Assembly: GCA_964016885.1 (NCBI GenBank)
Contig: OZ024741.1
Location: 340,008,001-340,072,000 of the forward strand
Length of the DNA: 64,000 nt
Reading direction: 5' to 3'
Origin: Eledone cirrhosa
Lineage: Eukaryota
Shown here: positions 16,158 to 16,850 of the stretch, one piece after another
Position numbering within the stretch: the stretch's first letter is position 1
How the letters are laid out: the number at the start of each line of letters is the position of its first letter
Position numbers and translations under genes: made by a program
The notes under the pieces: generated by a model
The model's database searches: none
Seen by the model: the letters and a program-made list of their open reading frames with translations, nothing else
Told to the model about the DNA's origin: nothing

Positions 16158-16850
16158 TATTATAATTAAATATAAAAGAAAAACAAACACAGATATATAG
16201 ATATATGTGTTCAAATCGCAAAGGACCAGATTCGCTAAGGTGAAAAGAATACTAACTATAGACAATTGGGTTTGCTTGTCTCAATTTAAGAGAAAATCAA
16301 GAAAATAAATACAAACCGGAATTGTGGTAACTACCAATCACCCAGACAGCTTGGTGCTGTTTCGCAATATTAATTGTGAATAGAATTACCAATTCTTGCT
16401 CATCAGTGGTTGATGAATTAGTATCCTAGACACTTCTAAGTATATTAAGGAACTAAATAGTGTGCTATATATAATAGCGCATATGGTATCTTAGCGTGTC
16501 TCACAAACTTACACCACTAAAAATAGCAGCCAGGTTTATTCAACATTTGAAATAACTCAACAAATTAATGGAGCCGAATATATCAAAGGTTTATATTGAG
16601 TTAGGAACTCAAAATAGTCTCTTACAACAAAATAGCTCTAAGAAAGAGATATTTCCGAGCCGTATATTATAATTGAATATAAAAGAAAAACGAACACATA
16701 TATACATATATGAGTTCAAATCGTAAAGAACGAGATTCGCTAAAGTGAAAAGAATACGAACTATAGACAATTGGGTTTGCTTGTCTCAATTTAAGAAAAA
16801 AATTAAGAAAATAAATACAAACCGGAATTGTGGTAACTACCAATCAACCA
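16158..16850 (-). mobile_element. Retrozyme-like non-coding element: 506-nt unit plus ~185-nt terminal redundancy
   Basis: Direct repeats 16158-16344 and 16665-16850 with an internal hammerhead. Flanked by (TA)n. Confidence 0.8.
16338..16413 (-). ncRNA. Type I hammerhead ribozyme (intact core, GUC site)
   Basis: Minus strand: TCAACCA-CTGATGA-GCAA...TTGC-GAAA-CAGC accaa GCTG-TC-TGGGTGA. Cleavage is predicted between 16345 and 16344. Confidence 0.85.

What the first reader, a model, noticed from the sequence alone, without database searches (positions are those of the whole stretch)
16158..16850. Retrozyme-like 506-nt unit that begins exactly at its own ribozyme cleavage site
Seen: on the minus strand the insert starts at 16850 (TGGTTGATTGG...) straight after (TA)n. 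It runs 506 nt to a complete GUC hammerhead, and after the predicted cut (16345/16344) the same first ~185 nt repeat. The terminal copy TGGTTGA pairs perfectly (7 bp) with the 5' stem I strand TCAACCA. No convincing ORF. Established: retrozymes are small non-autonomous HHR elements that yield circular RNAs. Inference: the template was a self-cleaved or circularised ~506-nt RNA copied about 1.4 times, a fossil of viroid-like RNA mobility. The repeats differ at roughly a dozen sites, so the insertion is old.
Basis: partly seen in the sequence, partly recalled or inferred. Interest (0 to 1): 0.85.

Follow-up and report, generated by a model that had tools for sequence, protein, structure and literature searches.

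The report
Hammerhead retrozyme pasted by Penelope-type machinery
This is an aged copy of a very abundant, protein-free jumping repeat that carries a predicted self-cutting "hammerhead" RNA and was likely pasted into TA repeats by a Penelope-type retrotransposon; its start at the predicted cut site is real but looks like chance, so it is a new member of a known class.

Summary
In detail: a 506-nt non-coding unit (16850 to 16345, minus strand) ends in a type I hammerhead and is followed by a 189-nt repeat of its start, with 12 substitutions and 2 indels. The hammerhead stems show compensatory changes across three related families. The family is abundant: 516 exact matches to its first 27 nt.

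The headline feature does not generalise. 98 of the first 100 listed copies read through the cut site. Stops there (7 of 516, under a filter) are not significantly above two neighbouring control positions (3 of 632 and 5; p 0.15-0.4). The 'perfect' 7-bp pairing comes from two minority alleles unlinked elsewhere.

What is fixed is the 3' end: 146 of 188 outer ends fall at unit positions ~188 or ~273, on (TA)n. In inverted-arm insertions one arm uses each site (38 of 40 classifiable; 11 of 11 in a young sister family). This is the Penelope-like insertion signature. The genome holds Hydra-type Penelope-like ORFs, but no sequence-matched partner was found. Cleavage and RNA circles are untested.

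Verdict: new member of the animal non-LTR retrozymes (non-autonomous Penelope-like elements). This scan has already reported such elements on other DNA.

The parts
16345..16850 (-). One full 506-nt unit (u1-u506), from predicted cut site to predicted cut site; non-coding
   Evidence: circular fold -113.7 kcal/mol, z = -4.0 against 60 dinucleotide shuffles
16156..16344 (-). Partial second copy (u1-u188) ending at the family's short fixed 3' end; inferred start point of reverse transcription
   Evidence: 92% identity to u1-188; 80 of 188 outer 3' ends fall at u179-189
16338..16413 (-). Type I hammerhead: stem I 16413-16407 with 16344-16338 (one A.G mismatch in this copy), core CTGATGA 16406-16400, stem II 16399-16396/16367-16364, GAAA 16363-16360, stem III 16359-16356/16350-16347, predicted cut 16345|16344
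   Evidence: motif scan; pair counts in 63 family-A and 10 sister-family copies; alignment A1
16578..16671 (-). About 85-nt 'tail' segment between the two fixed 3' end sites (u188 = 16663, u273 = 16578); gap-free and well conserved between two sister families; candidate binding site for the mobilising protein (inferred)
   Evidence: no compensatory changes among its 21 predicted pairs
16851..17038 (.). (TA)94 tract at the 5' junction; target microsatellite, shared with a different element inserted head-to-head
16150..16165 (.). Short TA run at the 3' junction, overlapping the unit's own TATAATATA (microhomology); no target-site duplication can be read

Best explanation
This is a decayed copy of an abundant 506-nt non-coding repeat with a type I hammerhead motif, likely inserted by the reverse transcriptase and endonuclease of a Penelope-like element (a non-LTR retrozyme). 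Steps: (1) Inferred: a source copy is transcribed and the hammerhead cuts the RNA into unit lengths, which are probably ligated into circles. (2) Inferred: a Penelope-like protein cuts a (TA)n tract and primes reverse transcription inside the RNA, at one of two fixed sites, u188 or u273. The fixed ends and TA targets are shown; the enzyme is inferred. (3) Shown at DNA level: copying runs toward the RNA's 5' side and normally passes straight through the cut-site junction, once, twice or three times, then stops at a variable point. (4) Shown at DNA level: in many insertions a second, inverted arm is present and uses the other fixed site; inferred to be primed from the opposite DNA strand. In this copy, synthesis began at u188, passed one junction, and ended at the second junction after 695 nt with no inverted arm. 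It has since decayed by a few percent. With no hammerhead upstream, it is not expected to release a doubly cut monomer.
For: Family size: 3234 candidates, 516 exact 27-mer matches. Hammerhead covariation: between family A and sister family C, three stem I pairs and one stem III pair change on both sides; within A, stem III pair 3 is G-C in 37 and A-T in 18 of 63 copies. A third family has another stem I, TGCTTG/CAAGCA. 3' ends: 146 of 188 at u179-189 or u255-275; the short end is at the homologous position in both sister families, the long end homologous in D and about 13 nt short of it in C. Inverted arms in 71 of 118 loci. One short plus one long end in 38 of 40 classifiable A insertions and 11 of 11 D insertions. 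Repeats within a locus are closer than between loci in 60 of 63 direct and 60 of 64 inverted pairs, and share about 3.5 times more minority alleles. The genome has 927-928-aa open frames; the one read carries RT and GIY-YIG motifs and the Hydra-clade marks RWK, DKT, CxCX5C, and that family has two fixed 3' ends on TA. The architecture matches PMC8557442 and PMC11167929; the retrozyme-Penelope link is in PMC7229834 and bioRxiv 10.64898/2026.07.22.740005.
Against: No autonomous element sharing sequence with the unit was found among 50 GIY-YIG-bearing loci of about 41,000 candidates, so the mobiliser is unidentified. The 928-aa ORF has no Pfam or PDB hit; its assignment rests on motifs read by eye. 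Rfam does not detect the hammerhead. In a 111-nt context the hammerhead-competent fold is about 9 kcal/mol less stable than the minimum-energy fold, both for this copy and for a near-majority copy. Li et al. saw cleavage in only 1 of 9 tested frog elements. 31 of 71 inverted-arm A insertions have at least one end outside the two sites. The 118 loci are not a random sample.
Confidence: 0.85

Rival explanations
1. One reading: the template was a linear RNA whose 5' end had been made by self-cleavage, so the insert begins exactly at the cut because the enzyme ran off the end of the RNA.
For: This copy does begin at the cut. Under one filter, 7 of 516 copies stop exactly there, and 2 more have deletions ending exactly there; three further cases were seen outside the filter (L073, L081, L084). 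Against a flat stop rate of 1 per 238 nt this is enriched (Poisson p about 0.004 with the window left out).
Against: Position-matched controls remove the signal: 3 stops of 632 at u12 and 5 at u7; odds ratio 1.7-2.2, Fisher p 0.11-0.39 (the total at u7 was assumed to be 516-632, not measured). 98 of 100 listed copies read through. The neighbouring element ends on the same TA tract at a point that most of its family's best-matching copies run past.
Confidence: 0.3
2. No circle is involved: the template is an uncleaved linear read-through transcript of a tandem source copy, or a linear monomer on which the enzyme jumps from the 5' end back to the 3' end.
For: PMC11167929 reports that hammerhead cleavage was not needed for insertion in vitro, that unprocessed RNA was the dominant substrate, and that no reads ended at the cut. 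Read-through of the junction fits an uncleaved RNA equally well. Deletions ending exactly at u1 (L073, L183, L188) fit template jumps.
Against: No long source array among the best 40 of 3300 candidates. Multi-unit insertions are internally homogeneous and share minority alleles (L086: 1.6% between two of its units vs 12% between loci), as repeated copying of one monomer would give. Three families keep a covarying hammerhead and a 506-547-nt unit.
Confidence: 0.35
3. The unit is only the pseudo-LTR/UTR left by 5'-truncated insertions of a longer autonomous Penelope-like element.
For: The insertion signature is the same as that of autonomous elements in this genome. Li et al. found 24 of 57 frog retrozyme families homologous to 22 known elements, 21 of them Penelope-like.
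Against: Long copies wrap from u506 to u1 rather than extending into coding sequence. Penelope-like protein hits in 7 of the 93 loci searched lie in the flanks; the two I checked by coordinates (L014, L042) are hundreds of bases from the unit. No homology to the flanks of 50 GIY-YIG loci, apart from one separate insertion of sister family D.
Confidence: 0.07
4. A local DNA duplication or satellite remnant with a chance hammerhead-like motif.
For: Rfam gives no hit; the region is full of simple repeats.
Against: Hundreds of dispersed copies with fixed 3' ends. Invariant core and compensatory stems across families about 65-70% alike.
Confidence: 0.02

Closest known systems
Metazoan non-LTR retrozymes (Cervera and de la Pena 2020, PMC7229834: passages and Discussion read; Li, Clavereau and Pollet 2026, bioRxiv 10.64898/2026.07.22.740005: parts 1-3 of 5 read, supplements not seen)
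   Same: Non-coding, AT-rich unit with one type I hammerhead per repeat; tandem or partial-tandem copies; co-occurrence with Penelope-like elements, which both papers propose as mobilisers.
   Different: 506 nt is above the 170-400 nt of the 2020 paper but inside the 51-972 bp of the 2026 preprint. Copies are dispersed, up to about 2.4 units in what I saw, not long arrays. This copy has one hammerhead, so it fails the preprint's 'active' definition. No RNA evidence here.
Insertion architecture of EN+ Penelope-like elements, in particular the Hydra clade (Craig et al. 2021, PMC8557442: passages read)
   Same: 5' truncation, partial tandem, adjacent inverted 5' copy, a tail often at only one end, (TA)n targets, canonical hammerheads.
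   Different: No ORF. The tail is about 85 nt rather than 30-40 bp. No sequence link to an autonomous family was found.
PAc Poseidon element of Anolis (Frangieh et al. 2024, PMC11167929: parts 1-2 of 4 read, supplements not seen)
   Same: Reverse transcription starts inside the RNA at two sites that define the genomic tail; both DNA strands are cut and extended; AT-rich targets; hammerhead cleavage is not a barrier to insertion.
   Different: PAc is autonomous and its start sites lie in the ORF's 5' part. Here the two inferred sites are 188 and 273 nt past the cut in a non-coding unit. The one-short-one-long pairing of inverted arms is counted here; I did not see such a count in the parts read.
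Plant LTR retrozymes (PMC4918200, search listing only; features as described in the two retrozyme papers above)
   Same: Non-autonomous hammerhead retroelements proposed to move through RNA circles.
   Different: Those have type III hammerheads in LTRs, primer-binding site and polypurine tract, and 4-bp duplications, and use Gypsy machinery. This element has a type I hammerhead and Penelope-type ends.

Membership tests
Metazoan non-LTR retrozyme | Type I hammerhead in the repeat unit | tested here: met
   Core, three stems and GUC triplet present; covariation; not detected by Rfam
Metazoan non-LTR retrozyme | Short non-coding unit of low GC | tested here: met
   506 nt; longest ATG ORF 34 aa; 28% GC over 16001-17000, TA tract included
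Metazoan non-LTR retrozyme | Head-to-tail repeats joined at the cut site, many genomic copies | tested here: met
   1.37 units here; up to about 2.4 units elsewhere; 516 exact matches
Metazoan non-LTR retrozyme | Two consecutive complete hammerheads ('active' copy of Li et al.) | tested here: not met
   This copy has one; other loci have two or three (L002, L086). This lowers 'active source copy', not family membership
Metazoan non-LTR retrozyme | Self-cleavage of the RNA | not testable with these tools
   Predicted only; a competing fold is about 9 kcal/mol more stable in a 111-nt context
Metazoan non-LTR retrozyme | Expression as unit-length linear and circular RNA | not testable with these tools
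   Needs RNA data from this organism
EN+ Penelope-like insertion (non-autonomous) | Ragged 5' truncation with partial tandem | tested here: met
EN+ Penelope-like insertion (non-autonomous) | Inverted 5' copy | tested here: met
   71 of 118 family loci; absent in this copy
EN+ Penelope-like insertion (non-autonomous) | Two fixed 3' ends, tail at one end only | tested here: met
   146 of 188 ends at two sites; 38 of 40 classifiable inverted insertions have one of each
EN+ Penelope-like insertion (non-autonomous) | (TA)n target bias | tested here: met
   3' flanks printed are mostly TA runs; not counted against a control
EN+ Penelope-like insertion (non-autonomous) | Sequence shared with the pseudo-LTR of an autonomous partner | tested here: inconclusive
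   None in 50 loci of about 41,000 candidates
Autonomous Penelope-like element | RT plus GIY-YIG ORF | tested here: not met
   No ORF in the unit; none seen contiguous with it in 93 loci searched
Plant LTR retrozyme | Type III hammerhead in LTRs, 4-bp target duplication | tested here: not met
   Type I topology; TA-embedded ends with no readable duplication

The most novel reading that the evidence does not exclude
These families are a genome-scale fossil record of two-ended, target-primed reverse transcription on an RNA circle. A Penelope-like protein cuts both strands of (TA)n and primes one strand at u188 and the other at u273 of the same circular retrozyme RNA. Both copies roll through the ligated cut site and are then joined. 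That would explain, with one rule, the partial tandems, the inverted arms and the one-sided tail (38 of 40 and 11 of 11 classifiable inverted insertions). The young sister family (96-100% identical copies) and intact Hydra-type ORFs in the same genome would make it directly testable.
Probability: 0.35. Interest if true: 0.65.

Novelty: new member of a known kind. Interest (0 to 1): 0.38.

Why it matters
The single insertion is ordinary. The family-level counts are the useful part. How Penelope-like elements make partial tandems, inverted arms and one-sided tails is an open question, and the retrozyme-Penelope link rests in print mainly on co-occurrence and sequence trees. Here three related non-coding families show a near-strict rule (one short and one long end per inverted insertion in the two families counted), homologous end positions, and read-through of the ribozyme cut site. 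These fit the in vitro finding that both strands are extended from two internal start sites. A near-identical young family offers material for cleavage, circle and insertion assays.

Tried and rejected
Rfam, gathering threshold on the window and E-value threshold on 8000-27000, 16150-16860 and 17035-17950: no hammerhead or other ribozyme row among those listed (one search showed 150 of 189 rows).

RNA evidence: no RNA holder listed for a near-majority copy; no reads were laid.

Pile-up of 5' ends at the cut: looked enriched against a flat rate, but not against matched positions. One control was badly designed: its filter let point mutants through (13 of 15 rows; 1 true stop at u18, 1 break nearby), so it is not used in the test. 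The Fisher line printed used placeholder numbers and is disregarded.

A compensated A-U subfamily behind the 7-bp pairing: rejected. None of the other CAACCA loci with a readable junction has T at position 4, and the two other TGGTTGA copies seen have CACCCA.

Long tandem source arrays: none in the best 40 of 3300 candidates; a direct genome-wide count of dimers was not obtained.

Autonomous partner: a 68% match downstream of a GIY-YIG fragment (L139) proved to be a separate insertion of sister family D behind a TA tract. The 3.3-kb and 6-kb spaced D copies showed no Penelope-like ORF between them among frames of 150 aa or more.

Structure of the 85-nt tail: 21 predicted pairs, none with a compensatory change in 20 sequences, so it is unsupported.

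Pfam and PDB searches of the 928-aa ORF: no hits.

Literature searches for an octopus/Penelope/hammerhead report and for twin priming in Penelope elements gave nothing specific in their listings. The library lacks most subscription papers and I read no supplements, so these may hold prior descriptions.

Full report
1. Observation. The window lies in a 3.0-Gb, microsatellite-rich animal genome (host not determined). On the minus strand, directly after (TA)94, a 506-nt unit runs from 16850 to 16345. It is followed by a 189-nt repeat of its first 188 nt (16344-16156; 12 substitutions, 2 indels) that ends in a short TA run. The unit ends in a type I hammerhead: TCAACCA, CTGATGA, stem II GCAA/TTGC, GAAA, stem III CAGC/GCTG, then GTC|TGGGTGA. 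There is no ORF: longest ATG frame 34 aa, longest stop-free frame 58 aa, read round the circle. Folded as a circle the unit gives -113.7 kcal/mol, z = -4.0 against 60 shuffles. Rfam does not report the hammerhead.

2. The ribozyme motif is under structural constraint. In 63 family copies the core stem pairs hold in most cases, and stem III pair 3 alternates G-C (37) and A-T (18). A colinear sister family C (about 70% identical, 520-nt period) changes three stem I pairs and one stem III pair on both sides, and varies the free N7 position (10 copies). The core is invariant in alignment A1 (23 sequences chosen by a core-containing pattern). A third family D (547 nt, about 65-68% identical, copies mostly 96-100% alike) has yet another stem I, TGCTTG/CAAGCA. 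Against activity: a competing fold is about 9 kcal/mol more stable in a 111-nt context, and this copy's junction has an A.G mismatch. Cleavage is predicted, not shown.

3. The 'perfect 7-bp' pairing is not a family trait. The family pair is TCACCCA/TGGGTGA (233 vs 13 exact matches). T at u4 occurs in about 2% of 117 pieces. The A and T alleles are not found together at other loci. The downstream repeat in the window has the majority G. The simplest reading is that T4 arose after insertion. The joint chance is about 1 in 1000 by allele frequencies (my arithmetic, after the fact), so it remains a curiosity.

4. 5' ends do not pile up at the cut. 516 places match u1-27 exactly and 432 are preceded by GTC. 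Of the first 100 listed, 85 have GTC, 13 have a mutated but continuous junction, and 2 stop at u1. A filter for non-family bases before u1 gave 10 places: 7 stops (the window among them), 2 deletions ending at u1, 1 point mutant. Against a flat stop rate (mean extension 238 nt in 30 pattern-picked matches, read off by eye) this looked enriched. Matched filters at u12 and u7 gave 3 stops plus 1 deletion of 632, and 5 stops. The odds ratio is 1.7-2.2 with p 0.11-0.39. So at most 1-2% of copies end at the cut; a weak excess is not excluded. Read-through is what a circle or an uncleaved RNA predicts, and not what run-off from a cut linear RNA predicts.

5. What is fixed. In 118 loci, 146 of 188 outward 3' ends lie at u179-189 (80) or u255-275 (66), mostly on TA runs, and 71 loci carry an inverted arm. 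These loci are not random: best full-length hits, genome-order pattern hits, hand-picked and filter-picked places, with 9 duplicates dropped. Of the 71, 40 have both ends at the two sites, and 38 of these have one short and one long end (p 7e-10 against independent choice); 31 have an end elsewhere. In family D the count is 11 of 11, from 12 inverted insertions. The short end is at the homologous position in C and D; the long end is homologous in D and about 13 nt shorter in C. In D only about 3 nt (TAT) match the target at either end, so the sites are not set by long microhomology alone.

6. One template variant per insertion. Overlapping pieces within a locus are closer than between loci in 60 of 63 direct and 60 of 64 inverted pairs (means 5.8% and 5.4% vs about 9%), and share about 3.5 times more minority alleles (pairs within a locus are not independent). 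The window's two repeats differ by 6.4% and share three minority alleles, so they were probably identical at insertion, each about 3% decayed since. No long array appears among the best 40 of 3300 candidates. This favours repeated copying of one monomer (circle or template jump) but cannot separate one molecule from one source locus.

7. Mobiliser. A GIY-YIG-like fragment in the window has 41,185 candidate relatives. Two fetched loci have 927- and 928-aa open frames. The one read (L125) has RT motifs, a C-terminal GIY-YIG, and RWK, DKT and CxCX5C, the marks Craig et al. give for the (TA)n-targeting Hydra clade (read by eye; no Pfam or PDB hit). That family also has two fixed 3' ends on TA, and L125 has one at each end. 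It shares no sequence with this unit, so the actual partner is unidentified.

8. Mechanism. Shown: dispersal, fixed 3' ends on TA, ragged 5' ends, read-through, inverted arms with complementary end use, intra-locus homogeneity, a covarying hammerhead. Inferred: transcription, cleavage, ligation, and Penelope-type target-primed reverse transcription from two internal sites on both strands. For this copy: start at u188, one junction passed, stop at the second junction, no inverted arm. Confidence 0.85 for the class, about 0.55 that the template was a circle, about 0.3 that this copy's start reflects a cut RNA end.

9. Comparison with what is known. Non-LTR retrozymes and their proposed Penelope-type mobilisers are described in PMC7229834 (passages and Discussion) and bioRxiv 10.64898/2026.07.22.740005 (parts 1-3 of 5). 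Partial tandems, inverted arms, one-sided tails and TA bias are in PMC8557442 (passages). Two internal start sites and extension of both strands are in PMC11167929 (parts 1-2 of 4). No supplements were read. I did not find this family or a count of the short/long pairing in the searches run. Earlier notes of this scan describe similar elements in this and other genomes; my reading was recorded before I saw them, and no look-alike sequence was on file.

10. Verdict. Real feature, new member of a known kind, interest 0.38. The cut-site start is best treated as chance; the family-level end rule is the part worth following up.

Noticed in passing
window 17039-17948 (+): A different 580-nt partial tandem (1.57 units) sits head-to-head on the same (TA)94 tract. 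It has about 3000 candidates at 94-97% identity, a fixed 3' end at position 330, and runs of up to about 4.9 units. No canonical hammerhead or Rfam hit was found, though it has a CTGATGA word and a G+C-rich foldable stretch near 17540-17590.
   Followed up: partly
L213-L242 (e.g. L215:1501-2269): Young sister family D: 547-nt unit, 2206 candidates, copies mostly 96-100% identical, hammerhead with a long branched stem III, the same two end sites. Best material for bench tests.
   Followed up: partly
L144-L163 (e.g. L146, L151): Sister family C: 520-nt unit, 2255 candidates, about 70% identical to the window unit, compensatory hammerhead stems.
   Followed up: partly
window about 8735-8870 (+), core at 8789: Second type I hammerhead-like motif of an unrelated family between TA runs; its flanks are inverted repeats, so it may be a short fold-back remnant.
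   Followed up: no
window about 26230-26480 (-), core at 26375: Third hammerhead-like motif (CTGAAGA ... GAAA CCGTCGG TA) in another TA-flanked insert.
   Followed up: no
L124, L125 (G000:C1:252655700-252663500; C4:364663300-364671000): Penelope-like elements with intact 927-928-aa frames and Hydra-clade motifs; the 3' region has a hammerhead-like motif with a variant core (CTTGAGA) and two fixed ends on TA.
   Followed up: partly
window 37266-37853 (-), 51039-51533 (+), 42211-45782 (-): Decayed retroelement fragments: an RT-like frame (weak RVT_1, below cut-off), a GIY-YIG-like frame, and a broken non-LTR retrotransposon-like ORF.
   Followed up: partly
window 15960-16150, about 8485-8640 and about 26520-26700: A recurring repeat with a long hairpin (CCCCGACGGCAG...CTGCCGTCGGGG) follows TA tracts and flanks several inserts, including this one.
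   Followed up: no
L073, L183, L188: Copies in which roughly 10-32 nt of the hammerhead's 3' part are missing exactly up to the cut site; they could record 3'-trimmed RNA ligation or template jumps.
   Followed up: partly
window 1-5159 and 56277-64000: Long satellite arrays with 19-nt and 42-nt periods.
   Followed up: no
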